From positions 15,284 through 79,283 of IMG/VR virus record IMGVR_UViG_3300017778_003242: DNA of 64,000 bases; one strand, written 5' to 3'. Position numbers and translations under genes: made by a program. The notes under the pieces are model-generated. The model did not search any database. It was given only the letters and a program-made list of their open reading frames with translations, and was not told the origin of the DNA. Below are positions 5,696-63,955 of this stretch, piece by piece (position 1 is the first letter of the stretch; each line of letters opens with the position of its first letter). Source of the DNA: a virus. Its lineage: Duplodnaviria > Heunggongvirae > Uroviricota > Caudoviricetes.

Positions 5696-6037
5696 ATGAA
5701 AAATAAACGCAATCCGCCGCTGTCTTTCGCGTCCCAGTATGAAATCCTTCGTCCAGAGGATAGGGTCATCCTGTTCGCAATCATGGACAATGTCCGTGAG
5801 GGCAAGCGGTGCGTGATTCGGAACCGGGCGATGGATAACGCCTCGATCATCCTGTCCTATGCCGGGCTGATCCGGGTCGGCCAAGAGATCGGTCAACAGC
5901 CGGTCATATACGCGATCACGGCGCGCGGCGTGAAGTTCCACCAGTATATGCAGCAGAAGACCACCCCACAAGCGCAGATGGCGGCGTTGCCACCGTCACA
6001 CCCGCTGCGGACGCTACCACCCTCACAGGCCGCGTAG
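5696..6037 (+). CDS. hypothetical protein
   Basis: ORF after the terminator. The first ATG is at 5696; the listed start at 5660 is TTG. No motif. Confidence 0.3.
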   Translation: MKNKRNPPLSFASQYEILRPEDRVILFAIMDNVREGKRCVIRNRAMDNASIILSYAGLIRVGQEIGQQPVIYAITARGVKFHQYMQQKTTPQAQMAALPPSHPLRTLPPSQAA

Positions 6038-6089
6038 GGCTCACTAACAGTCGATTTGGATGCTAACATCGGCGATGTTACAATACGTC

Positions 6090-6124
6090 GGCACTGTTAG
6101 ATAAATGCCGACGTTTCGTATCAG
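6090..6124. terminator. bidirectional terminator between convergent genes
   Basis: ACGTCGGCA-N12-TGCCGACGT inverted repeat, plus the TAACATCGGCGATGTTA palindrome just upstream. Confidence 0.45.
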
Positions 6125-7770
6125 CGCTGCTTGAACCCGGCCCACGGCTTGCCATTCCAGATCGCCACCATCGCGCGCTTGCCGTTGGCATATGTCACGA
6201 TGAAGCTGTGGGACCAGTTGGACGGGCCTTTATTATACCCTTGATCGAGCGCGCCCATCACGCCAGCCCACCATGCACCGAGCATGATGACACAGCCATG
6301 GATGTGACCGTAGTTCGCCTTGCGTCCGATCTTGGACAGGTTCGCCGTGCCGCCGCGCGCCCCGTTCGAGCCGCGATGCCCGTGATTGCCGCACTCGATA
6401 CCACCACCGAATTCCCTTGCGATGACGAAGCTCTCGTCCTCCCGCAAGAAGCGGGCCTTGGTATCGCAGAACTGATTCAGCGCGTATTCGAGAAGGTGGA
6501 AGTCATCGTCGCCGCGCGCGATCGCCTCATACTTGGCGAGCTGGAGCTTCAGGAAGTACAGGGCGTTCGGCGGGTCGGTCTTATAGTCAGCCTCACGAAG
6601 CCACCGCTCCAGAGCTTCATCGTGGTTGCTATCGACGACCACTGTCTCGCACCACGGGCGGTACACTTCATCGGCGAGGAAGTGAGCACACTCGCGCGTC
6701 TCGTCTTCCACCTTATCCTTGCCCCGGACGTACTTGTCGTACATCTGGTGGGCATCTTTCATGTCGTGGTGCGACCGGCGATCCATGTCGAACAGATCGT
6801 GCTCGAACTCATAGGCCGGGCGCAGTTGATCCTTGATCCCGTTCTTGCCCCAGAACAGGGTCTTCATCCACTGTTCGAGTTTCGCATGGTGGATGTCGCC
6901 GGGGTTCAGGGCGAGCACGATATTTGGGTCAACCTTGGTCGGCTTGATCGTGCGGACCTTGCCGTCGGCGACCACTTTGTTCAGGTCTTGGAAGTTGCCG
7001 TCGTCGTCAGCGGAGAGCTGGCGAACGAACCAGTCGCCGTCGCTATCCACTTCGACGATCAGGGCGGCGAAGCTGTGGTGGAATTCGGCTTTGAGCCCGG
7101 CGTCCTTGTGGATGTAATTCTTCAGCGTCAGAGCGCCTGTAGAATACATGAACTTGGTCGGCTCGTGCTTGCTGGACGCGATCGACTGGAGAGCGACCTT
7201 GGCGTGCGGGATGATGCCCGACTTGCGTCCAGTATACGTCTCATAGCCCGTGAGAGGATGGACCTTGGTCGGGAGGATGTTCGTCTCGCCGCACCACGCG
7301 AGGCCGGGAGCAAGCTCCACGCGGCGATCGACGATGAAGGGGACAATGCGCGGGTCGTACCAGAGCTTGTCTTGGTGTTCGACCTTGGTGCCTTTCTTGA
7401 CGGACATCTCGCCGAAGGCATTGTGGCTGTAGGTGAAGGTGGAGATCATGATCTCCGCGCCAAGGTCGTCGGCGTATGCTTCAAGGTTGGCCCACAAGCC
7501 GTCGTGGATCGCGGTGTTGTTCTGGGCGCTGGTGACGATGTACCGGCTGATATTGGAGCCCTTGGGGAGCGCCTTCTTCTCGATCTTGACCTTGCCCTCT
7601 TTCGATCCGCCCCACATGGGCTTGACCTTCAGATCGGATGATTGGGCCAGACGTTCGCGGATCGCACGCCGGGACACGCCCATGATCTCTGCGACTTTAT
7701 CGGTTGAGCCGTGTTGGTCCATCAGCGCGCGAGTTTCACTCAGAACGCGCAGGTTCGTCGTCGATCCCAA
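6121..7770 (-). CDS. HTH-domain protein fused to a calcineurin-like metallophosphoesterase
   Basis: N-terminal AEIMGVSRRAIRERL HTH. C-terminal half carries GDIHH, SNHDE, GNHGH and GHIHG metallophosphoesterase motifs. It is the last gene of the leftward transcription unit. Confidence 0.55.
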   Translation of the reverse strand: MGSTTNLRVLSETRALMDQHGSTDKVAEIMGVSRRAIRERLAQSSDLKVKPMWGGSKEGKVKIEKKALPKGSNISRYIVTSAQNNTAIHDGLWANLEAYADDLGAEIMISTFTYSHNAFGEMSVKKGTKVEHQDKLWYDPRIVPFIVDRRVELAPGLAWCGETNILPTKVHPLTGYETYTGRKSGIIPHAKVALQSIASSKHEPTKFMYSTGALTLKNYIHKDAGLKAEFHHSFAALIVEVDSDGDWFVRQLSADDDGNFQDLNKVVADGKVRTIKPTKVDPNIVLALNPGDIHHAKLEQWMKTLFWGKNGIKDQLRPAYEFEHDLFDMDRRSHHDMKDAHQMYDKYVRGKDKVEDETRECAHFLADEVYRPWCETVVVDSNHDEALERWLREADYKTDPPNALYFLKLQLAKYEAIARGDDDFHLLEYALNQFCDTKARFLREDESFVIAREFGGGIECGNHGHRGSNGARGGTANLSKIGRKANYGHIHGCVIMLGAWWAGVMGALDQGYNKGPSNWSHSFIVTYANGKRAMVAIWNGKPWAGFKQR

Positions 7771-7828
7771 TGTCGGCTCCTATATGACTTCGGCGCACCA
7801 TGACTGCGTCAAAGTCGCAAGTCAATAG

Positions 7829-8086
7829 TTAATTGCCGTCGCGGGTCTTTTCCAGAACGAACACACGGGCCTTCAAATCGGCGATCTCGGTCGCGTAGTT
7901 GTTGTCACCCTGTTCGCTTATTTGCGCCTGAAGGTTCGATACCTTCTCGGTCAACGTGGCGACGCTAACTGTCAGGCCTTGCGTGGTCATAGCCATCCAC
8001 GCACAGACCGCGCCGAGCGCGGCCATGATCATGGTCTGAAGGTGCCGCTCAACGAAGCTGGCGGATTGTTCGACTTCTTCGGACAT
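7829..8086 (-). CDS. small membrane/coiled-coil protein (lysis-associated?)
   Basis: 85 aa, one TM (MIMAALGAVCAWMAM) followed by a coiled coil. Start overlaps the o-spanin stop. Confidence 0.4.
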   Translation of the reverse strand: MSEEVEQSASFVERHLQTMIMAALGAVCAWMAMTTQGLTVSVATLTEKVSNLQAQISEQGDNNYATEIADLKARVFVLEKTRDGN

Positions 8087-8409
8087 TACGACCCCTCACG
8101 CTGGCGGTAGAAATCAAGTTGGACGACGGCTTCGGCGATCCACCGATATAGTTCGGCGATGTTCTCCATCAGCTTCTCGTGTTCCGATGCTGAGTAGATG
8201 ACGACCACGTTGCCAGATTGCGGGATATCATTGGGCGCGGCGCGGAGATGCGCAGTCACTTCCTGAACTTCAATTGGGGCGGGTAGGGGAAGGACGGGCG
8301 ACGCCGGGACCGGCAGAGGGGCCGGTGACACGCTCGAACATGCCGAACAGAGCAGCGATGCGCCGATTAAGAGCGGCTTCAGCACCCGAGGGATCATCAG
8401 TGAACTCAT
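8086..8409 (-). CDS. outer-membrane spanin (Rz1-like lipoprotein)
   Basis: Signal peptide with LLCSAC lipobox, proline-rich mature part. Overlaps the 3' end of the i-spanin gene in another frame. Confidence 0.6.
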   Translation of the reverse strand: MSSLMIPRVLKPLLIGASLLCSACSSVSPAPLPVPASPVLPLPAPIEVQEVTAHLRAAPNDIPQSGNVVVIYSASEHEKLMENIAELYRWIAEAVVQLDFYRQREGS

Positions 8410-27839: not shown

Positions 27840-28367
27840 TCAAGCCCCGCGTCCGCGCTCCCAGTCGATCTGGGACTTCCCATCGACTTCCTGAACGCGC
27901 GCCGTCCAGCCGTTCTTGAATGTCGGCCAGTGCGGGAGCGTCTTCATGAATTCGAGGCGTTTGGCATTGTATTCAGCCAGTTTTTCCTTCGGCGCGTGGA
28001 ACACCGCGGCAACGGTTTTGGGGCCGATGACGCCATCCGGAGTGAGCCCGAGAACGGTCTGAAGGACGCGCACCGCGCGCCCCGGTCCGGAGTTATAGGC
28101 GAAGTCCACGACCGCGTAATCCCAGCCATGCTGGAGCTTGTCGCCCTTAACGGCCATCCAGTATTTGACATTGAAGATCGCCCGAGCCTGTTGGCGCGTG
28201 ATCATCTTGACGCTGTACGGCGCGGTGCCGGACGCGGCCAGATACTCGTTGAAGACCTTCTGCGTCACGCCAAGATTGGTCGCGCCGCCGGGGTCTTTCG
28301 GATTATCGACGTAGCCGCCTTCGTGCGCGAGCATACGTTCGAAGATGCGTTCGAAATTCGGCGTCAT
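27840..28367 (-). CDS. endolysin, glycoside hydrolase family 108 + peptidoglycan-binding domain
   Basis: EGGYVDNPKDPGGATNLGVT GH108 signature. C-terminal LGLTPDGVIGPKT PG_binding_3-like motif. Confidence 0.8.
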   Translation of the reverse strand: MTPNFERIFERMLAHEGGYVDNPKDPGGATNLGVTQKVFNEYLAASGTAPYSVKMITRQQARAIFNVKYWMAVKGDKLQHGWDYAVVDFAYNSGPGRAVRVLQTVLGLTPDGVIGPKTVAAVFHAPKEKLAEYNAKRLEFMKTLPHWPTFKNGWTARVQEVDGKSQIDWERGRGA

Positions 28368-43143: not shown

Positions 43144-43446
43144 CTATGCTGTCCGCGTCACGACCACGCCGTCAGACGGCGCTGTCCAGTTTCCGTACAG
43201 CACGCCGCCGCGGACGGTGCTCGACGAGAACTTCATCTGCTTCGAACGCTGCACGAAGGCGATCGCGTTGGACAGGCGACGCGCCGTCTTCACGACAGTC
43301 TCCATCTCGCCGCTGATGTCGTCCACCACACGCGCGCCATGGAAAGCGCTCTCACCGACGGCCATTGCACGCAGGCCATAGATGTCCGAGCCGGTGCGCC
43401 CGCCAAAGCCTTGGCGCTTGGGCTTCTCGAAACCTTCGATCTTCAT
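43144..43446 (-). CDS. hypothetical protein (100 aa)
   Basis: First gene of the leftward cluster, after the tRNA. No motif. Confidence 0.4.
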   Translation of the reverse strand: MKIEGFEKPKRQGFGGRTGSDIYGLRAMAVGESAFHGARVVDDISGEMETVVKTARRLSNAIAFVQRSKQMKFSSSTVRGGVLYGNWTAPSDGVVVTRTA

Positions 43447-43594
43447 TTGGTCATTCCTTGCTAGAGCCCCAGTGCGGAGCGGTCAGACGTGTTATGCAGG
43501 CAGCGTGCCACATCGTCAACAACTATTTTACTGCATTAGATAAAAAGATGGCCGGACACGAATGCCCGGCCATGTTCTTACTGAGTTCGGTAAA

Positions 43595-43671
43595 TGGTAC
43601 GAAGGGAAAGAATCGAACTTTCGACCTCGCGGTTATCAACCGCGCGCTCTTCCCAACTGAGCTACCCTCGC
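43595..43671 (-). tRNA. tRNA-Ile (anticodon GAU)
   Basis: Reverse complement reads GCGAGGGTAGCTCAGTTGGGAAGAGCGCGCGGTTGATAACCGCGAGGTCGAAAGTTCGATTCTTTCCCTTCGTACCA. D-arm GCTC/GAGC, anticodon stem CGCGG/CCGCG with loop TTGATAA, T-arm GAAAG-TTCGATT-CTTTC, encoded CCA. Confidence 0.7.
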
Positions 43672-44182
43672 AAACGGTTAGTCGCGAGACATGGTAATTC
43701 GCTTCGGACCCTTGGACTTGCGGGCGAGCGCGGCCAGAGGCTTCGCCGCGGGTTTCTGGGCGACGGCTTTCTTCTGACGGGACTTCTTCAGCATGGACAT
43801 GGGCAATACCCCTTGAAATGATGGCCCGCCCGTACGCCGGAGCGCAGAGGGACGGGGCGTTACCTTTACGTTGTCCCATGTCCATGGACGGAAGTCAAGA
43901 CTATCGGGCTGTGGGCCGATAAGGGCTGTTATCGGGCGATGGGCCTTACCCCCTGCGGAGGCTAGAAGCCTTTTAACCCCCGTAAGGGATAAATTTCTAA
44001 AATTTTTTATGAAATCAAGGGGCTAAGAGGCGGGGCTATAATATAAGTACCCCCGGTCTAATTTCCTACCCTCATACGAGCGTATAATGACTGGCGTAGT
44101 AAGGTTAATGACCCATGTTGGGGCATTACCCCCTGTTAGGGTTAACAAATCCCTAAGCGGTAAGGTTAATCGATCGTTAAGG

Positions 44183-44300
44183 TTAATAAATAATAAAAAT
44201 AATAAATAATTAATTATTTATTATTTATTAATGTTACATTACATACTGTTAATGTTACATGCTATGTATATACTATGTGTTAAGGTTAATAACATACTAA
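44183..44300. repeat. nearly pure A/T low-complexity tract with palindrome AATAAATAATTAATTATTTATT
   Basis: Roughly 120 bp almost devoid of G/C in a 60% GC genome. Contains a perfect 22-bp AT palindrome at 44201-44222 and flanking AAGGTTAAT motifs. Confidence 0.6.
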
Positions 44301-44654
44301 TGCACACACCATGCTGTATAGGTTAATTGTTATTAACCATGCTCTATATAAGGGGGCTTAAATAGAGGGGGCTTAGCAGTGGGTTAACCTTAACAGAAAG
44401 CCACATTCTGTTAAGGTTAATAATTTGCGAATTTCTGGTATGGTTAATAAAGACCCTCAAAAAATTAACCAAGAAAGTAAGGTTAACAAATCATGTTGAA
44501 AAATTAACCCTAACAATGGATTAATTTAGTACCTCACAATTAGATTAAATTCATTTGAAATAACTGCCAATATCCCGCTATTCCGATAAAGGTAAAGAAA
44601 CCCATCATCCCTAACAGTCGCTTAATAGTGATCATGAAATTCCCCTTGTGTGGT

Positions 44655-44686
44655 AAGCCCCCTCTTTAGGAGGGGGCTTAGCCTTT
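44655..44686 (-). terminator. terminator downstream of minus-strand gene 44686-44934
   Basis: AAGCCCCCTC-TTT-AGGAGGGGGCTT hairpin. Confidence 0.5.
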
Positions 44687-58412: not shown

Positions 58413-58900
58413 TTGCTCAAGGGAGGGAACTCTAACCGCGCGTGAACGGCGCGGGCTCGAACTGGTAACAGACTGCAAAGTCGGATTAGGGCGCAAGCCT
58501 GAAAACTCTGCCCTCCCGTCATGATCGCCCGCAAGGCTAGAGCATGATTAGGAACGGAACAATTCGGCACGGTTCACATTTTTCTGGCGTAGCGTGGTAT
58601 AGGTATTGCATGGGTAGTTGGCTGACGGATGGACGCAAGGGCCGAAGTTTCTGGTCCGGGTTTTTCTGGTTCACAAAGAAACGGCGACGAAAGAGCCGAA
58701 GGGTTTTATAGGACGCGCCGCTGCAACGGCTAGGGGAAAGTGATCGCCCCGAACGAAGGCCCGCAAGGCTGAAAAGATGGCTAGGGGTCAAAGGGAGTCG
58801 GGTAGCGTGGAGGGGTAACCCGCTGAAGCGTCCGGCTCCCTCCCGAGCCCCGGCCATTAATCTTAACACCGGCACGTTTCACGACGACGTTTCACACTGT
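58413..58900 (+). ncRNA. candidate structured noncoding RNA (GNRA-hairpin-rich, ORF-free)
   Basis: 490-nt gap with no credible ORF. Repeated GGCGCAAGCC / GCCCGCAAGGC GCAA-tetraloop hairpins each followed by GAAAA. Distant complementary GGGAGGGA ... TCCCTCCC segments at the two ends. Repeated TTTTTCTGGTTCACA. Confidence 0.3.
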
Positions 58901-59003
58901 CAGAAACTCGCGCGTTTTTCTGACACTTTTTTATTGATCCGTTAGGACCGGCGTGGCATGACAATCGCAAGAGACAACGCAGAGAGTTTTTGGAGCTATC
59001 GTT

Positions 59004-60494
59004 ATGACACAGTGGTCCGAATTTCAGGAAGCCATCTTTGCCCACGTCGAGAACCCGGAAGGCGGGAACTTGATCGTCGAGGCAGTCGCCGGGTCCGGCA
59101 AGACCACGACCATCGTCGAGGCAACGAAGCGTTGCGGCGACGCGCGCGTGATCTTCCTCGCCTTCAACAAGTCAATCGCAACGGAGCTGAAGTCGCGCGG
59201 CGTGAACGCCCGGACGTTTCACTCGCTCGTCTTCAATCCGGCGTTGAACCTTCGCGGCGTTCGCGACGCGACGACGGATAAAATGTACAAGCTGACCGAC
59301 TCGGACGCTGGTCACTGGGAAGATAAGGACGCGCGCCTGTACGCGAAATTTGTGCGCAAGCTTGTCGGCCTTGCCAAAGGCGTCGGCATCGGTTGCTTGC
59401 TGGAGGATACCGAATCGGAATGGGTCGCGCTGGCGGACCATCACGATATGGAACTGGAGAGCGACGCAGCGGACTTCGCGACGGCCATCGAATGGTCGCG
59501 CAAATTCCTGCGCATCTCGAACGCGTCCAAAATGGTGGACTTTGACGACATGCTTTATCTGTGCGTCAAGGAAGGCGTGAGCCTCCCCAAATTCGACTGG
59601 GTTTTTGTTGACGAGGCGCAAGATACGAACCCGATTCAGCGCGCGATCCTTCGCAAGATCATGCGCGACGGCTCACGCCTTGTCGCGGTCGGCGATCCTG
59701 CGCAAGCGATCTATGGCTTTCGCGGCGCGGACTCGGAAAGCCTCGCCATGATCGCCTCGGAATTCAACGCCACAACGCTCCCCCTTAGCGTCTCCTATCG
59801 CTGCGCCCAATCCGTGGTCAACTACGCCCGCCAATGGGTCGGCCACATCCTGCCCGCGTCTACGGCCCCGGAAGGCACCGTTGACACAATGGCAGACTGG
59901 ACGCTGGATATGCTCGCCCCGGCTGACCTTGTCGTCTGCCGCAATACCAAGCCCCTGATCGCCCTCGGCTACAAAATGCTGAAGGCGCGCAAGCCCGTCC
60001 GCATCCGCGGGAAAGAGATCGGCGAGGGTCTGGTCAAGCTGATCGAAAAGCAGCGCGCGAAAGGTATCGACCGGCTGGTGGAAAAGCTTTCCGCTTTCCG
60101 CGACCGCGAAGTCGAGAAAGCTATCGCCGCGAAGCAACCGGCCAAGGCGGCGGCGGTTGCTGACAAGGTGGACGCGATCCTTTGCCTGATCGACTCGCTG
60201 GACGAAAACGCGCGCACCATCCCGGCGCTTCTGGACATCATCCGCACGCTTTTCGAAGACGTGCGCAACGCGACCACGCTCTGCACCATTCACAAGTCGA
60301 AAGGACTTGAGGCGACGCGCGTGTTCTGGCTTGACCGCTCCCTGTGCCCGTCCAAATGGGCGACGCAGGAATGGCAGAAGAAGCAAGAGCGGAATCTCTG
60401 CTACGTCGCAGTGACGCGCGCCAAGTCGGCGCTGGTCATCGTCGAGAGCGACCGCCTGCTAGAAGACGCCCCCAAGGCGAAGGCGGCGGCATGA
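59004..60494 (+). CDS. UvrD/PcrA-like superfamily I DNA helicase
   Basis: AGSGKTTT Walker A, VFVDEAQD Walker B, IHKSKGLEA and VAVTRAKS late motifs. 496 aa. Confidence 0.75.
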   Translation: MTQWSEFQEAIFAHVENPEGGNLIVEAVAGSGKTTTIVEATKRCGDARVIFLAFNKSIATELKSRGVNARTFHSLVFNPALNLRGVRDATTDKMYKLTDSDAGHWEDKDARLYAKFVRKLVGLAKGVGIGCLLEDTESEWVALADHHDMELESDAADFATAIEWSRKFLRISNASKMVDFDDMLYLCVKEGVSLPKFDWVFVDEAQDTNPIQRAILRKIMRDGSRLVAVGDPAQAIYGFRGADSESLAMIASEFNATTLPLSVSYRCAQSVVNYARQWVGHILPASTAPEGTVDTMADWTLDMLAPADLVVCRNTKPLIALGYKMLKARKPVRIRGKEIGEGLVKLIEKQRAKGIDRLVEKLSAFRDREVEKAIAAKQPAKAAAVADKVDAILCLIDSLDENARTIPALLDIIRTLFEDVRNATTLCTIHKSKGLEATRVFWLDRSLCPSKWATQEWQKKQERNLCYVAVTRAKSALVIVESDRLLEDAPKAKAAA

Positions 60495-60760: not shown

Positions 60761-61018
60761 ATGAACAAAGAACCCGGCTATCGCCCCTTTTGTCTTGTGT
60801 GCTCCACAATGGGGCGCATGACGATCACGCCGTCCGGCTTCCGCTGTGACGGCGACGGCGATGCGTTCGCACGGCCCGGCTGTGGCAACGAGATCGACCC
60901 GGACGGGCGACGCCTGCCCGGATCGCCCGGACCGTCTCCAGCGGCGCTGGAGGCGCAACGGCGCATAATGGAGAGCCCCGTGTCATTCGCCGCCTTGCTT
61001 GCCGCTTCGCGCCTGTAG
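60761..61018 (+). CDS. small Cys-containing protein (85 aa)
   Basis: CLVCS...CDGDGD...CGNE. Confidence 0.4.
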   Translation: MNKEPGYRPFCLVCSTMGRMTITPSGFRCDGDGDAFARPGCGNEIDPDGRRLPGSPGPSPAALEAQRRIMESPVSFAALLAASRL

Positions 61019-61139
61019 GGCTTGCCCCGTGGCCCGGATCATGCAACGCTCTGGACATCCCGGCGCTGCGCCGGACGAAAGGAGGTGATCCAAGCATCTC
61101 ACCCCCTGCCCCGATCCGACTGGGGCGCTGCGACGGAGG

Positions 61140-61370
61140 CGGCTATGAAGTAAGATTAATGGCGTTGGCGGTGAAATCCCGCGTGTTAATCAGGGCCGGG
61201 AAGTAGTGTTAACACCTGTACCCCGGCCCGCCCAACACAAGAAATCGCAGTAAGGTTAACATGACACCGCCCTCATGTTAAGATTAACGGCGATCGTTGC
61301 TATTAACCCTAACGGCAGTTTCGTTTCATTAACCTTAATTCGCGTTAACCATAACGCCGCGCCGCGATCT
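61140..61370. repeat. second TTAACC / TTAACCAT motif cluster
   Basis: GTAAGGTTAAC, ATGTTAAGATTAAC, TATTAACCCTAAC, CATTAACCTTAAT, CGCGTTAACCATAACG. Confidence 0.5.
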
Positions 61371-61403
61371 TCATCCAAATTTCATGCAAACCGGCACCGA
61401 GTC

Positions 61404-61454
61404 TGAAGTCCCCTCCGGCCTCCCAGCGTTTCAAGTCTGAAGTCACCTCCGGCC
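61404..61454 (+). repeat. second copy of TGAAGTCCCC-NNGGCCT iterons (x2)
   Basis: TGAAGTCCCCTCCGGCCT and TGAAGTCACCTCCGGCCT, 33 bp apart. Confidence 0.5.
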
Positions 61455-61694
61455 TCACAGCTTTTCAGCATTGACTTTTCCCGCGACCATCGGCATCTTC
61501 GCAAATCCACGTCCCTCCCGTCTTGGCTTTTCTGTCCGAGCGCGACATCTGGACAGTGTGACGCGGCCCGATTATTGCACCCCTTTACTGAGGGCGACAG
61601 ATCGGGCCGCAAACACTCTGTCAGAAAAATGTGGACGTTTATCTGACAACGTGCTAAGGCTCGAATTCGCGAATTCTTGCAACCGGAATGGACC

Positions 61695-62084
61695 ATGAGC
61701 GACAACTGGCTTTCCACCGATGAGCAGATCAGGGAAGTCTGCGACCAAGCCGTGAAGGAATACGGCGGTTCCGACATCCTCTCTATCCGCTGCCCCACCA
61801 AGGAAATTCAGGCCAAGGTGCGCAAGTACCTTGACAGCAAACGCGGCGGCAAGACGATCGACACATATGTCGGCGCGCTGAACGACAACCGGGCTGGAAT
61901 GATCGATACGGGGCATGGCACCCGGTCAAAAACCCGGTCCAAGAAAGGGGATAGTACCCCTATCGAATTGGAGGGGGAGGGGGATGACACCCCGGATCAA
62001 GACATTGACCATATCCTCGATCAGAAGCACTATGCGCAGATGGCGGATTTGACGCCGGACGATGATTTGGACGGGCTCGTATGA
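61695..62084 (+). CDS. hypothetical acidic protein (129 aa)
   Basis: ORF. Confidence 0.4.
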   Translation: MSDNWLSTDEQIREVCDQAVKEYGGSDILSIRCPTKEIQAKVRKYLDSKRGGKTIDTYVGALNDNRAGMIDTGHGTRSKTRSKKGDSTPIELEGEGDDTPDQDIDHILDQKHYAQMADLTPDDDLDGLV

Positions 62085-62527
62085 CCACGATTGTCTACTC
62101 TCGGAAGCACAAGACAATGGCGGGCGATTCCCAGCTCACCTATGGGTCTACGAGAGAGATGTCGATGCGGAAGGTATTCCGCAGGCCCAAGGACGGCGCG
62201 CTCATAGGCGTGGCTGGGATAGCCTCCCTAGCGACCAAGATCGTCGAGTGGTTCATGAACGATGAAGAGTATGGGGAGCGCCCCCCGTTCGGGATCGAGA
62301 GCAAGCAAGCCCAAGCGATCCTCGTGCGCCCGGACGGCACGGTCGAGTTCCATGACCTTTATGGATACCATCACGTCGATGGGGACTTCTTTGTCGGCGG
62401 CACTGGCGCTGACGTGGCGCTGGGCGCGCTCGAAATGGGGGCGACACCCCAACAGGCGGTGCGGATCGCGGCCAAGTACGACACCAAGACCGGCGGCAAG
62501 GTCCGTTACGTCAAGCTCAAGAAGTGA
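62081..62527 (+). CDS. HslV-like N-terminal-nucleophile (proteasome beta-like) peptidase
   Basis: MTTIVYSRKHKTMAGDSQLTYGSTREMSMRKVFRRPKDGALIGVAGIASLA aligns with E. coli HslV [53 protein letters not shown]. C-terminal FFVGGTGADVALGALEMG matches [20 protein letters not shown]. Confidence 0.6.
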   Translation: MTTIVYSRKHKTMAGDSQLTYGSTREMSMRKVFRRPKDGALIGVAGIASLATKIVEWFMNDEEYGERPPFGIESKQAQAILVRPDGTVEFHDLYGYHHVDGDFFVGGTGADVALGALEMGATPQQAVRIAAKYDTKTGGKVRYVKLKK

Positions 62528-62598
62528 TTCCTCGGTACTTACGGCTAAGTACCGAGGATTTGTACCATAAACGTCCCATAAATGTCTTATAAGAGACG

Positions 62599-63093
62599 TT
62601 AGCGGAACCAGCTCAGCGGGTTCCACCACGACTTGTCGTTGTCGGCCTTGATCGCGGCGACCGCGGCGTCCGTCTCAGCATCCGTCATGTTCAACTCAAC
62701 GGCGGCGACTTGCGCACCATTGGTCGCGTTCTTCAGAGCCGTCGCAGTCTCCATCAGGAGGCCGCCGATCTCGCGGTTCTTGGCGGTCAGGGCTTGGACC
62801 TGTGCGCGCAGATTGTCCTTCTCAGCGTCTTCCGCAGCGACTTGAGCCTCAAGCTCAGCCGTCCGGGCCGCGGAGATCATGTTGAATTCGGCCAGCACAG
62901 CCGGGAGGGTGATACCCTCTCTCACGGCGGCGACCATATCCTTCTGGACTTCCTGTCCGACGATGCGCGTGCCGTCGTCGAATTCCTTGACCGTGACTTG
63001 GTTCACGAATGCGCCAAAGCCACGCTCCGGCTGGGCCGGGTCGTACATCTGGGCATAGAACGTCGTCGAGTGGGTCGTCTCAGTAAAGGCCAT
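62599..63093 (-). CDS. coiled-coil protein (tail fibre assembly/chaperone?)
   Basis: 164 aa. Central ELEAQVAAEDAEKDNLRAQVQALTAKNREI coiled coil. Downstream of the glycine-rich genes. Confidence 0.4.
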   Translation of the reverse strand: MAFTETTHSTTFYAQMYDPAQPERGFGAFVNQVTVKEFDDGTRIVGQEVQKDMVAAVREGITLPAVLAEFNMISAARTAELEAQVAAEDAEKDNLRAQVQALTAKNREIGGLLMETATALKNATNGAQVAAVELNMTDAETDAAVAAIKADNDKSWWNPLSWFR

Positions 63094-63106: not shown

Positions 63107-63955
63107 TTAGAAGATTTCAGTGATGAATATCACGCCGTCGCCGCCACGTCCACCGTCGCCGCCGGTCGTGCCGCCACCGCCGCCACCGCCGCCGGAACCG
63201 ACACCGCCGTTACCGCCGCGCCCGCCCCCGCCTGCGTTGAACGAACCAGCGCCCGATCCGCCGGATGCAAAGAACGGCTTCCAAGACGTGATGCCGTTGA
63301 AGCCTTCGCCGCCCGACACACCGCCGCCCGAGATAAGGGGGATGAGGCCCGTTGCCGTGATGTTACCGCCCGCGAGGTCCGCGCCGGTACAGCCCGCGCC
63401 GCCCGCGCCGCCACCGACGATACGAGTAGGAGTAATGGACGTACCGGCTGTGGTGGGAGTGCCCCCGGCCACGCCAGCAGCGCCAGCGATCGATAGGAAC
63501 GTGGCGTAGTCAGAGAACATGCCGTTGGTGCCGATGACACCGCCGGAGCCCGCAGCGCCCGCAGCAGCGCCCGTACCAGTACCGCCCGCACCACCACCGC
63601 CGACGGTATAGATGTTCGTGGTGGTCGAGTTAGCGGCCCGGAGGCCTATGATTGTCGCGCCACCGGCGACGGTCGTAGCACCACCAACGCCCGGCTGGAG
63701 GAAGATCGTATCTGGCAACAGGAGCGCGGGGATCGTAACACGCAGCAAACCGCCGCTACCGCCGCCCCCGCCGCCGCCGCGCGCCGCCGCCGCCGCCGCA
63801 GTGAAGCCCCGGCCACCGCCACCGCCCGCGCCGATCGCCAAGATTTGCAGCGCGACGACGTTGGCCGGAACCGTGTACGGAATCCAGTCAGCGCCTCGCG
63901 GCAGGAAAATCGACGATCGTTTGTCGTTGCGGATATTGGGGGCCGGATCAAACAT
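63107..63955 (-). CDS. glycine-rich fibre-like protein
   Basis: 282 aa, more than 40% Gly with GGGGxGG runs. Confidence 0.5.
   Translation of the reverse strand: MFDPAPNIRNDKRSSIFLPRGADWIPYTVPANVVALQILAIGAGGGGGRGFTAAAAAARGGGGGGGSGGLLRVTIPALLLPDTIFLQPGVGGATTVAGGATIIGLRAANSTTTNIYTVGGGGAGGTGTGAAAGAAGSGGVIGTNGMFSDYATFLSIAGAAGVAGGTPTTAGTSITPTRIVGGGAGGAGCTGADLAGGNITATGLIPLISGGGVSGGEGFNGITSWKPFFASGGSGAGSFNAGGGGRGGNGGVGSGGGGGGGGTTGGDGGRGGDGVIFITEIF

What the first reader, a model, noticed from the sequence alone, without database searches (positions are those of the whole stretch)
62081..62527. Stand-alone HslV-like Thr1 peptidase without an HslU partner
The N-terminus MTTIV... places Thr at position 2, which becomes residue 1 after Met removal. 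The first 55 aa and the C-terminal GxG region align with HslV. The protein is about 30 aa shorter than HslV and no AAA+ HslU-like gene is nearby. A phage proteasome-like peptidase could process virion or host proteins, or hijack host HslU.
Basis: partly seen in the sequence, partly recalled or inferred. Interest (0 to 1): 0.6.

Follow-up and report, generated by a model that had tools for sequence, protein, structure and literature searches.

The report
Phage mini-proteasome homolog (PPH family)
This phage gene encodes a stripped-down, 148-residue relative of the proteasome/HslV protease with an intact active site and no ATPase partner; it belongs to a phage family (PPH) that was described in 2021 and is common, but whose job in infection nobody has worked out.

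Summary

No HslU-like AAA+ gene is in the 64-kb window, nor in ~15 kb beyond it in a relative.

It is not an HslV. It scores 18.5 bits against the HslV equivalog cut-off of 137. It lacks helix H2, the Arg86/Arg89/Lys90 pore cluster and the HslU-tail pocket. [quoted passage not shown] 2021) and PHROG 1040, "peptidase HslV family" (E=1e-31). At least 328 deposited phage genomes carry the family, as do about 1,900 50%-identity protein clusters.

Most likely it is a stand-alone, ATP-independent Thr1 peptidase made with the replication-phase genes. Its substrate is unknown. Hijacking of HslU and head maturation are both disfavoured.

Two local details are new. A translationally coupled upstream gene has a conserved acidic C-terminal tail. 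An operator-like palindrome is shared with the helicase gene unit.

Verdict: a new member of a known kind, of modest interest.

The parts
62081..62527 (+). PPH-family proteasome homolog CDS (148 aa). Catalytic equivalents by codon: Thr2 62084-62086 (Thr1 nucleophile), Asp16 62126-62128 (Asp17), Lys31 62171-62173 (Lys33), Gly43 62207-62209 (oxyanion Gly45/47), Gly-Thr-Gly 107-109 62399-62407 (GSG, Ser124/129), Asp134 62480-62482 and Thr137 62489-62491 (Asp166/Ser169).
62261..62305 (+). Codons 61-75: the loop NDEEYGERPPFGIES (net charge -4) that replaces HslV helix H2 and its Arg86/Arg89/Lys90 pore cluster.
   Evidence: DSSP: helix 48-60, no secondary structure 61-74, strand 75-82; gap against HslV 66-90; family loop length median 12, net charge median -2; PMC5777263 for the role of this region in HslV.
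61695..62084 (+). Upstream gene ORF129 (129 aa from ATG 61695; an alternative TTG at 61677 gives 135 aa). It is translationally coupled to PPH by an ATGA overlap. It has a small N-terminal alpha/beta domain, a disordered acidic linker and a conserved C-terminal tail ...DDDLDGLV.
   Evidence: conserved in L001, L006, L007; 12 homolog clusters only; pair with PPH kept in L039 and L040 at 44-48% PPH identity; alignment; AF2 pLDDT 56.6, residues 60-129 disordered. No Pfam, PHROG, NCBIfam or PADLOC match.
61619..61648 (.). Palindrome TGTCAGA-N16-TCTGACA, 29-47 nt upstream of ORF129. It is a candidate operator or regulatory site for the ORF129-PPH unit.
   Evidence: 2 matches in the window, 0.01 expected; conserved at the equivalent sites in L001 and L006.
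58898..58925 (.). Second copy of the same palindrome (TGTCAGA-N14-TCTGACA), 79 nt upstream of the UvrD-like helicase gene (59004-60494). This suggests the helicase unit and the PPH unit share a regulator.
62529..62558 (+). Perfect 13-bp stem with a 4-nt loop (TCCTCGGTACTTA-CGGC-TAAGTACCGAGGA), starting 2 nt after the PPH stop codon and followed by TTTGT. It is probably the terminator that ends the rightward early/middle gene block, ahead of the convergent late (tail) genes.
   Evidence: RNAfold; -27.3 kcal/mol for the 76-nt intergenic segment, which includes a second hairpin at 62581-62600. The consensus terminator scan did not pick it up because the T-run is short.

Best explanation

Shown here: it has the proteasome-beta/HslV fold. 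It retains every active-site position: Thr right after Met, Asp17, Lys33, the oxyanion Gly, the GSG motif and Asp166/Ser169. It has no propeptide. It lacks helix H2 and the HslU docking and activation elements. No unfoldase is encoded nearby. It is under purifying selection. It is the last gene of the rightward block that holds small early-type genes and a UvrD-like helicase.

Inferred: host methionine aminopeptidase removes Met1, because Thr at position 2 is a permitted residue (HslV expressed in E. coli lost its Met in 89% of molecules, PMC6429459). This exposes Thr1, whose hydroxyl group attacks peptide bonds with the Lys/Asp pair, as in proteasomes. The subunits probably self-assemble into an HslV/BPH-like ring, since helices H1, H3 and H4 and the beta-sandwich are kept. 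The enzyme would work without ATP on peptides or unfolded or loosely folded proteins in the infected cell during the replication phase. That is a host-takeover or housekeeping function (degrading host or defence proteins, or recycling peptides) rather than a virion-building one. Its natural substrate is unknown.

For: Active site: D16, K31, G107 and G109 are invariant in 89/89 sequences. Position 2 is Thr in 84 and Ser in 4. Position 108 is Ser in 77 and Thr in 7. D134 is Asp in 69 and Asn in 11. Position 137 is Ser in 43 and Thr in 35.

The PPH definition matches (~140 aa, no H2, no propeptide, phage-borne): PMC8665760.

Stand-alone: the window has no P-loop unfoldase, no second proteasome-like ORF, and none in a relative's extra 15 kb. 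No neighbour recurs across 25 IMG/VR loci.

Timing: the gene sits at the end of the + strand block with the helicase, shares a palindrome with the helicase unit, and is followed by a hairpin and convergent tail genes. In OP1/Xp10-type phages it sits among early genes.

Precedent: BPH is an HslV descendant with no unfoldase partner (PMC5777263).
Against: No biochemical or genetic data exist for any PPH member. HslV alone is nearly inactive without HslU (PMC6429459), and BPH was inert on standard substrates (PMC5777263), so a stand-alone ring may need an unknown activator or a special substrate. Loss of H2 could alter or abolish ring assembly. Fuchs et al. note that some homologs may have novel quaternary structures, and oligomer prediction was not possible with these tools. 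Expression timing is inferred from gene order only. In some phages PPH lies next to or inside the head-packaging module, so its role may differ between lineages.
Confidence: 0.75

Rival explanations
1. Hybrid ATP-dependent protease. The phage peptidase docks onto the host's HslU (or another host AAA+ unfoldase such as ClpX) and redirects ATP-dependent degradation to phage-chosen targets.
Against: The HslU-responsive elements are missing. H2 with Arg86/Arg89/Lys90 is deleted (PMC5777263). The HslU-tail pocket residues Phe54, Phe57, Ala79 and Lys80 correspond to T52, V55 and a deletion (PMC6429459). The HslV equivalog score is 18.5 against a cut-off of 137. BPH, also derived from HslV, lost HslU binding and did not pull down HslU. 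PPH occurs in phages of very different hosts.
Confidence: 0.1
2. Morphogenetic protease. PPH cleaves scaffold, capsid or other virion proteins during head maturation.
For: No conventional prohead protease was found in this window's head module, which runs portal, endolysin-like, scaffold, MCP. In an SU10-like contig PPH lies between portal and scaffold. In about half of 25 IMG/VR loci it is within 1-2.5 kb of TerL.
Against: Here it is ~32 kb from the head genes, on the opposite strand, in a unit with replication-type genes. Phage OP1 encodes both a canonical head-maturation protease (ORF6) and PPH (ORF51), far apart. Phages with a separate scaffolding protein often need no protease (general knowledge). 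The family is also found in jumbo phages, which have their own prohead proteases (general knowledge, not tested).
Confidence: 0.07
3. Not a degradative protease. The Thr1 active site is used for a different reaction: sequence-specific ligation or transpeptidation like connectase, or amide hydrolysis of a small molecule like other Ntn hydrolases, possibly as a monomer because H2 is lost.
For: Connectase shows the fold can become a monomeric ligase and also lacks the H1/H2 pair (PMC8665760; PMC7980362 listed). PPH lacks H2. BPH is inert on standard protease substrates.
Confidence: 0.06
4. Dominant-negative decoy. PPH co-assembles with or caps host HslV rings and so blocks the host HslVU protease.
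For: It is homologous to HslV and has the same N-terminal pentapeptide, MTTIV.
Against: Strict conservation of all catalytic residues across the family argues that catalysis, not mere binding, is selected. Identity to HslV is only about 20-24%, and one interface-side helix is missing, which makes mixed rings unlikely.
Confidence: 0.02

Closest known systems
[quoted passage not shown] 2021, Bioinformatics 37:4694, PMC8665760) = PHROG 1040 'peptidase HslV family'
   Same: Same size class (148 aa against ~140). Proteasome-like beta-sandwich with H1, H3 and H4 but no H2. No propeptide (Met-Thr start). Thr1/Asp17/Lys33/Gly47 retained. No C-terminal S12/H5 elements. Encoded by a tailed phage. Strong match to the PHROG profile (E=1e-31). 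The BFVD twin from Caulobacter phage CcrBL9 has TM 0.90.
   Different: Nothing qualitative. It has Thr instead of the usual Ser in the GSG motif (7 of 89 homologs do). It is at most 49% identical to members outside its own phage lineage. It has a lineage-specific, translationally coupled upstream gene (ORF129).
HslV (ClpQ), the peptidase of the bacterial HslUV ATP-dependent protease
   Different: 28 aa shorter. H2 and the Arg86/Arg89/Lys90 pore cluster are absent. The HslU C-tail pocket residues are not conserved. No hslU gene is present. It scores 18.5 bits against the HslV equivalog cut-off of 137, while E. coli HslV scores 303.8.
BPH (Betaproteobacteria proteasome homologue; PDB 5ovs/5ovu)
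   Same: An HslV-derived, propeptide-free Thr/Ser-1 protein with no partner unfoldase. Its pore region is acidic, and the window protein's replacement loop is also acidic (net -4). The profile E-value is similar to that for HslV (1.7e-12).
   Different: BPH is ~185-200 aa, keeps H2 and has a long pore loop after it. It is chromosomal in bacteria. It forms heptameric double rings, whereas PPH's oligomeric state is unknown.
20S proteasome beta subunits (active beta5 type)
   Different: No propeptide or autoprocessing, no alpha-subunit partner, about 50 aa shorter, and below the Pfam PF00227 gathering score (15.1 vs 22.4).
Connectase (archaeal monomeric proteasome-like ligase; PDB 6zw0)
   Same: A proteasome-family member that has lost helices on the H1/H2 side, and a precedent for non-degradative chemistry.

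Membership tests
PPH (PMC8665760) | Length about 140 residues | tested here: met
   148 aa. The family median is 148 and the interquartile range 143-159.
PPH (PMC8665760) | Proteasome-like beta-sandwich core with Thr1/Asp17/Lys33 and the oxyanion Gly | tested here: met
PPH (PMC8665760) | Lacks helix H2 (H1, H3 and H4 present) | tested here: met
   DSSP on the model shows helices 48-60, 110-118 and 123-133 only, and a loop at 61-74. hhalign shows a gap against HslV 66-90.
PPH (PMC8665760) | No propeptide (nucleophile directly after the initiator Met) and no C-terminal S12/H5 extension | tested here: met
   The protein starts MTTIV. 93 of 120 homologs start MTT[IV]. The model ends with strand 142-145.
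PPH (PMC8665760) | Encoded by tailed phages or prophages | tested here: met
   The window is a siphovirus-type genome with TerL, portal, scaffold, MCP and tape measure genes. Homologs are found in 210 and 328 phage records with two different queries.
PPH (PMC8665760) | Clusters by sequence with the PPH reference (WP_042125023.1 / OC.1434257) | not testable with these tools
As a proxy, PHROG 1040 matches at E=1.1e-31 and a family profile retrieves 1,868 clusters of ~140-160 aa at E<=1e-30.
HslV (ClpQ) | Scores above the curated HslV equivalog models (NF003964, TIGR03692) | tested here: not met
   18.5 bits against a cut-off of 137, and 15.1 against 157.75. The E. coli HslV control scores 303.8 and 288.2.
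HslV (ClpQ) | Partner HslU AAA+ gene (normally adjacent, hslVU operon) | tested here: not met
   There is no HslU-like ORF in the 64 kb or in 15 kb beyond it in a relative. E. coli hslV-hslU adjacency is shown for comparison.
HslV (ClpQ) | Helix H2 with the Arg86/Arg89/Lys90 pore cluster, and the HslU C-tail pocket (Phe54, Phe57, Ala79, Lys80, Gln114) | tested here: not met
   H2 is deleted, and F54 and F57 align to T52 and V55. The residue roles come from PMC5777263 and PMC6429459.
HslV (ClpQ) | Dodecameric double hexamer | not testable with these tools
   Only monomer prediction was available.
20S proteasome beta subunit (Pfam PF00227) | Passes the Pfam gathering threshold; has a propeptide removed by autolysis; assembles with alpha subunits | tested here: not met
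   PF00227 scores 15.1 bits against GA 22.4. There is no propeptide. There is no second proteasome-like ORF in the window.
BPH | About 185-200 aa, with H2 retained and an elongated pore loop between H2 and S7 | tested here: not met
Connectase | Monomeric ligase lacking both H1 and H2 | tested here: not met

The most novel reading that the evidence does not exclude
ORF129 and PPH form a two-protein, ATPase-free degradation module. In this reading, ORF129's conserved C-terminal tail docks into inter-subunit pockets of a PPH ring. The tail follows a ~60-residue disordered acidic linker and ends ...D-D-x-L-x-G-L-V, loosely like the HslU tail ...ADEDLSRFIL that switches HslV on. Docking would switch PPH on, gate it or deliver substrates, replacing the unfoldase with a small phage-encoded activator or adaptor.

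Support: the pair is translationally coupled (ATGA) and kept together across 44-48% PPH divergence.

Against: ORF129 exists in only one phage lineage (12 clusters). Upstream genes of PPH in other phages are unrelated. In L041 and L042, ORF129 is followed by an SPFH/Band_7 protein instead of PPH. The tail similarity is a short motif that could arise by chance.
Probability: 0.08. Interest if true: 0.7.

Novelty: new member of a known kind. Interest (0 to 1): 0.3.

Why it matters
PPH is the only proteasome-family lineage that is primarily viral. At least 328 of 50,697 deposited phage genomes carry it, including Jerseyvirus, Kagunavirus, Xp10-like, large Caulobacter phages and nucleus-forming jumbo phages. 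About 1,900 50%-identity clusters occur in metagenomes, roughly an order of magnitude more than the 219-324 sequences counted in 2021. Yet no member has a known substrate, oligomeric state or phenotype. Its active site is conserved as strictly as in real proteasomes, so phages clearly use the chemistry.

Finding its targets would show what a virus gains from carrying a minimal, unfoldase-free proteasome. The candidates are host defence proteins, host regulators, or peptides for recycling. It could also give a very small, self-activating Thr protease for engineering.

This particular copy adds little beyond another member. It does offer a clean two-gene unit (ORF129 plus PPH) with a candidate operator, which could be cloned and tested directly.

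Tried and rejected
1. A conserved AAA+ partner. One bacterial locus (Pseudaminobacter MAG, L032/L033) has an intact PPH followed by an IetA-like PF00004 ATPase. In the related Mesorhizobium loci the PPH copies are frameshifted pseudogenes and the ATPase is elsewhere or absent. I rejected this as a general partnership.

2. A universal neighbour. All-against-all clustering of ORFs around PPH in 25 IMG/VR loci plus isolates found none. Only TerL, portal and nucleotide-metabolism genes recur, which reflects module position.

3. Homology between the upstream genes of PPH in this window, OP1 and Rhizobium phage RHph_X66: none.

4. The two ~600-bp non-coding gaps flanking the helicase block looked like long inverted repeats. 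Alignment showed only short shared motifs, which resolved into the palindrome reported above.

5. Structure of ORF129: pLDDT 56.6, too poor for a fold search.

6. PADLOC: no defence-system model matches PPH or its neighbours.

7. Literature. I found no experimental study of PPH. Erwinia phage RAY gp116 ('HslVU protease family', co-localises with phage DNA) could not be verified as a PPH member with the tools at hand.

8. The search for related loci failed twice because the alignment was too diverse: A2 on viral contigs and A1 on genome contigs.

9. Oligomer modelling and catalytic-geometry measurement were not possible. Only monomer prediction was available and model coordinates were not exposed.

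10. An early mis-assignment was corrected: HslV oxyanion Gly45 aligns to G43, not G46.

Full report

Yes. An ORF at 62081-62527 on the + strand encodes 148 aa beginning MTTIVYSRKHKTMAGDSQLTYG. It has coding-type composition (GC1/2/3 = 0.60/0.43/0.79 in a 58% GC window).

It is conserved in related metagenomic phage contigs at 99%, 93% and 86% identity. Pairwise dN/dS is 0.14-0.28. A profile of its homologs finds 1,868 protein clusters (50% identity) at E<=1e-30 in a 1.8-billion-protein library. It is a real, selected gene.

**2. Is it HslV-like?**

Single-sequence tests are weak. Pfam Proteasome PF00227 gives 15.1 bits, below the gathering score of 22.4. phmmer against PDB HslV chains gives E~0.1 over the first 59 residues only.

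Family-level tests are decisive:
- PHROG 1040 'peptidase HslV family' matches at E=1.1e-31 over residues 1-147.
- A profile of 89 homologs (A2) hits T. maritima HslV at E=2.2e-13, BPH at 1.7e-12, E. coli HslV at about 5e-11 and proteasome beta5 at 3e-11.
- hhalign of that profile to a verified E. coli HslV (fetched from MG1655) gives 97.7% probability over 135 columns.
- AlphaFold2 with the alignment gives pLDDT 95.5 and pTM 0.89.
- Foldseek against the PDB returns only proteasome beta, HslV and BPH chains.

**3. Catalytic residues**

In the hhalign alignment:

| Window protein | HslV / 20S beta equivalent |
|---|---|
| Thr2 | Thr1 |
| Asp16 | Asp17 |
| Lys31 | Lys33 |
| Gly43 | oxyanion Gly45 (Gly47 in 20S) |
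| Gly107-Thr108-Gly109 | Gly-Ser124-Gly (Ser129 in 20S) |
| D134-T-K-T137-G-G | 20S Asp166-x-x-Ser169-Gly-Gly |

Conservation across 89 homologs:
- D16, K31, G107 and G109: 89/89.
- Position 2: Thr in 84, Ser in 4.
- Position 108: Ser in 77, Thr in 7.
- D134: Asp in 69, Asn in 11.
- Position 137: Ser in 43, Thr in 35.

Of 120 homologs, 93 start MTT[IV]. E. coli HslV itself starts MTTIV. Loss of the Lys or Asp equivalents, which would have refuted the finding, is not observed.

**4. Where do the missing ~30 residues go?**

The model has only one helix (48-60) between the first and second beta-sheet halves. It is followed by a 14-residue acidic loop, NDEEYGERPPFGIES. HslV has H1 and H2 there.

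The hhalign gap corresponds to HslV residues ~66-90, which is H2. A further ~9 residues are trimmed between H3 and H4.

In HslV the end of H2 carries Arg86/Arg89/Lys90. These line the pore, are needed for activity and are remodelled by HslU binding (PMC5777263). The HslU C-terminal tails that switch HslV on bind a pocket formed by Phe54, Phe57, Ala79, Lys80 and Gln114 (PMC6429459). In the window protein those positions are Thr52, Val55 and a deletion.

**5. Is there an HslU?**

No.
- A Walker-A scan of the called genes finds only two helicases and the large terminase.
- PHROG annotation of 50 ORFs shows a siphovirus layout. It has a helicase, ribonucleotide reductase, dNMP kinase and thymidylate synthase. 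The late genes are TerS, TerL, portal, an endolysin-like gene, scaffold, MCP, connectors, tape measure and tail genes. A rightward block of small genes ends with a UvrD-like helicase, ORF129 and the target gene.
- The family profile finds no second proteasome-like ORF in six-frame translation.
- Relatives are ~79 kb, so I walked ~15 kb past the window's right end in an 86%-identical relative (L047). It holds a 1,438-aa fibre gene, a Prim-Pol/D5-type primase-helicase, a nuclease and a DNA polymerase, and no unfoldase.

Any part of the genome to the left of window position 1 was not seen.

**6. What family is it?**

It is not HslV in the strict sense. The NCBIfam HslV equivalog models give 18.5 and 15.1 bits against cut-offs of 137 and 157.75. 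E. coli HslV scores 303.8 and 288.2 in the same call.

[quoted passage not shown] That family is defined by:
- about 140 residues;
- group I membership, with HslV and BPH;
- no H2 helix;
- no propeptide;
- a retained catalytic triad;
- occurrence in Caudovirales and prophages.

[quoted passage not shown] Every defining feature I could test is met (see the membership table).

The 'HslV without HslU' observation has also been made in print for a jumbo phage (PMC7823757).

**7. How common is it?**

tblastn finds the family in 210 phage records with this protein as query. It finds 328 with a Kagunavirus member as query, mostly Jerseyvirus-type Salmonella phages. It finds 67 with a jumbo-phage member as query, including SPN3US, phage EL and Erwinia jumbo phages. 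The overlap between these three sets was not determined.

Annotations include 'peptidase HslV family', 'nucleophile aminohydrolase', 'NTN hydrolase' and 'proteasome subunit beta'.

BFVD holds 51 viral structural representatives at E<=0.001. The best is a 146-aa Caulobacter phage protein with TM 0.90 and rmsd 1.5 A. No PDB entry is closer than 24% identity, so no PPH structure has been solved.

**8. Context and likely timing**

PPH is the last gene of the rightward block. A perfect 13-bp hairpin follows its stop codon, and then the convergent tail-type genes begin.

It overlaps the stop codon of an upstream gene by ATGA. That gene, ORF129 (61695-62084), is conserved with PPH in all close relatives. 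The pair also survives in two more distant relatives where PPH is only 44-48% identical. However, ORF129 exists only in this lineage (12 clusters). In two further contigs an SPFH/Band_7 gene follows it instead of PPH.

ORF129 has a small conserved N-terminal domain, a disordered acidic linker and a conserved C-terminal ...DDxLxGLV tail.

A palindrome, TGTCAGA-N14/16-TCTGACA, occurs exactly twice in the window (0.01 expected). One copy is upstream of the helicase gene and one is upstream of ORF129-PPH. Both are conserved in two relatives. This suggests common regulation of the two units.

In other phages PPH sits among early genes (OP1/Xp10-type). It also sits before the lysis genes (Kagunavirus) and next to tRNAs (Rhizobium phage). 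Often it lies at the junction between nucleotide-metabolism genes and TerL/portal. Once it lies between portal and scaffold. No neighbour is universal.

**9. Mechanism**

Shown: the fold, the complete and conserved active site, the absence of a propeptide, the absence of H2 and HslU-docking elements, the absence of an encoded unfoldase, and purifying selection.

Inferred:
- Host methionine aminopeptidase removes Met1 and exposes Thr1.
- Catalysis is proteasome-type.
- The subunits self-assemble into a ring through the retained H1, H3, H4 and sheet surfaces.
- The enzyme acts without ATP during the replication phase on host or phage proteins or peptides.

BPH is a precedent for an HslV descendant that became independent of HslU. 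It is also a warning, because it was inert on standard substrates.

I put 0.75 on 'stand-alone PPH-type Thr1 peptidase, not HslU-dependent, not a head protease'. The natural substrate remains unknown.

**10. Rivals**

- HslU hijack (0.10). It is disfavoured by the missing docking and activation elements.
- Head-maturation protease (0.07). It is disfavoured here by position and strand. As a general role it is disfavoured because OP1 has both a canonical head protease (ORF6) and PPH (ORF51).
- HslV decoy (0.02). It is disfavoured by strict catalytic conservation.

**11. Verdict**

The object is a new member of an already described and widely annotated phage family.

A specialist would not be surprised by this copy. 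The open question is what PPH does, and that question is real but not advanced by this sequence alone.

The ORF129-PPH coupling and the shared palindrome are small new leads. Interest is 0.3.

Noticed in passing
window 58898-58925 and 61619-61648: The palindrome TGTCAGA-N14/16-TCTGACA occurs exactly twice in 64 kb (0.01 expected). One copy is upstream of the UvrD-like helicase gene and one is upstream of the ORF129-PPH pair. Both are conserved at the same places in relatives L001 and L006. It is probably a shared operator or regulatory site.
   Followed up: partly
window 61400-61467: A tandem 34-nt direct repeat (91% identical; AGTCTGAAGTC[C/A]CCTCCGGCCTC[C/A]CAGC[G/T]TTTCA) lies inside the 660-bp non-coding gap (61018-61677) upstream of ORF129-PPH. 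Its function is unknown.
   Followed up: no
window 61695-62084 (+); L039-L042: ORF129 is a lineage-restricted protein (12 clusters). It has a conserved N-terminal domain, a disordered acidic linker and a conserved C-terminal ...DDxLxGLV tail. It is translationally coupled to PPH. In L041 and L042 the gene after it is an SPFH/Band_7 protein instead of PPH.
   Followed up: partly
window 27840-28367 (-): An endolysin-like gene (PHROG 315, E=3e-47) sits inside the head module between portal and scaffold. That is an unusual place for a lysis gene. No conventional prohead protease was found in this module.
   Followed up: no
L032/L033 (Pseudaminobacter MAG DASZDZ010000023.1) 6001-6495 and 6928-8358; L034, L035 (Mesorhizobium): An intact chromosomal PPH lies ~430 bp upstream of an AAA ATPase resembling IetA, the ATPase of the Ietis defence system (PADLOC E=1.3e-18), near HipA, Fic and HTH genes. 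In two Mesorhizobium genomes the PPH copy is a frameshifted pseudogene next to NifH-fragment ORFs. This could be a decaying protease-ATPase module.
   Followed up: partly
L031 (Logan SRR26290467 contig, 61.7 kb) 6001-6423: In an SU10-like podophage, PPH lies between portal and scaffold/MCP. That is the slot usually held by a prohead protease, so the family's role may differ between phage lineages.
   Followed up: partly
window 43595-43671 (-): A single tRNA-Ile (anticodon GAT) lies in a 1.2-kb gene-poor stretch (43446-44686) at the switch between the leftward and rightward gene blocks.
   Followed up: no
window 63107-63955 (-): A 282-aa, extremely glycine/alanine-rich protein has long GGGxGG runs. 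It matches 'minor tail protein' PHROG 754 only weakly (E=8e-7). It lies convergent to PPH and is followed in relatives by a fibre gene of 1,000-1,400 aa.
   Followed up: no
bioRxiv 10.1101/2023.02.24.529968 (Erwinia phage RAY gp116): An accessory 'HslVU protease family' protein of a nucleus-forming jumbo phage co-localises with phage DNA. PPH-family genes are present in related jumbo phages. I could not verify that gp116 is the PPH-type gene.
   Followed up: partly
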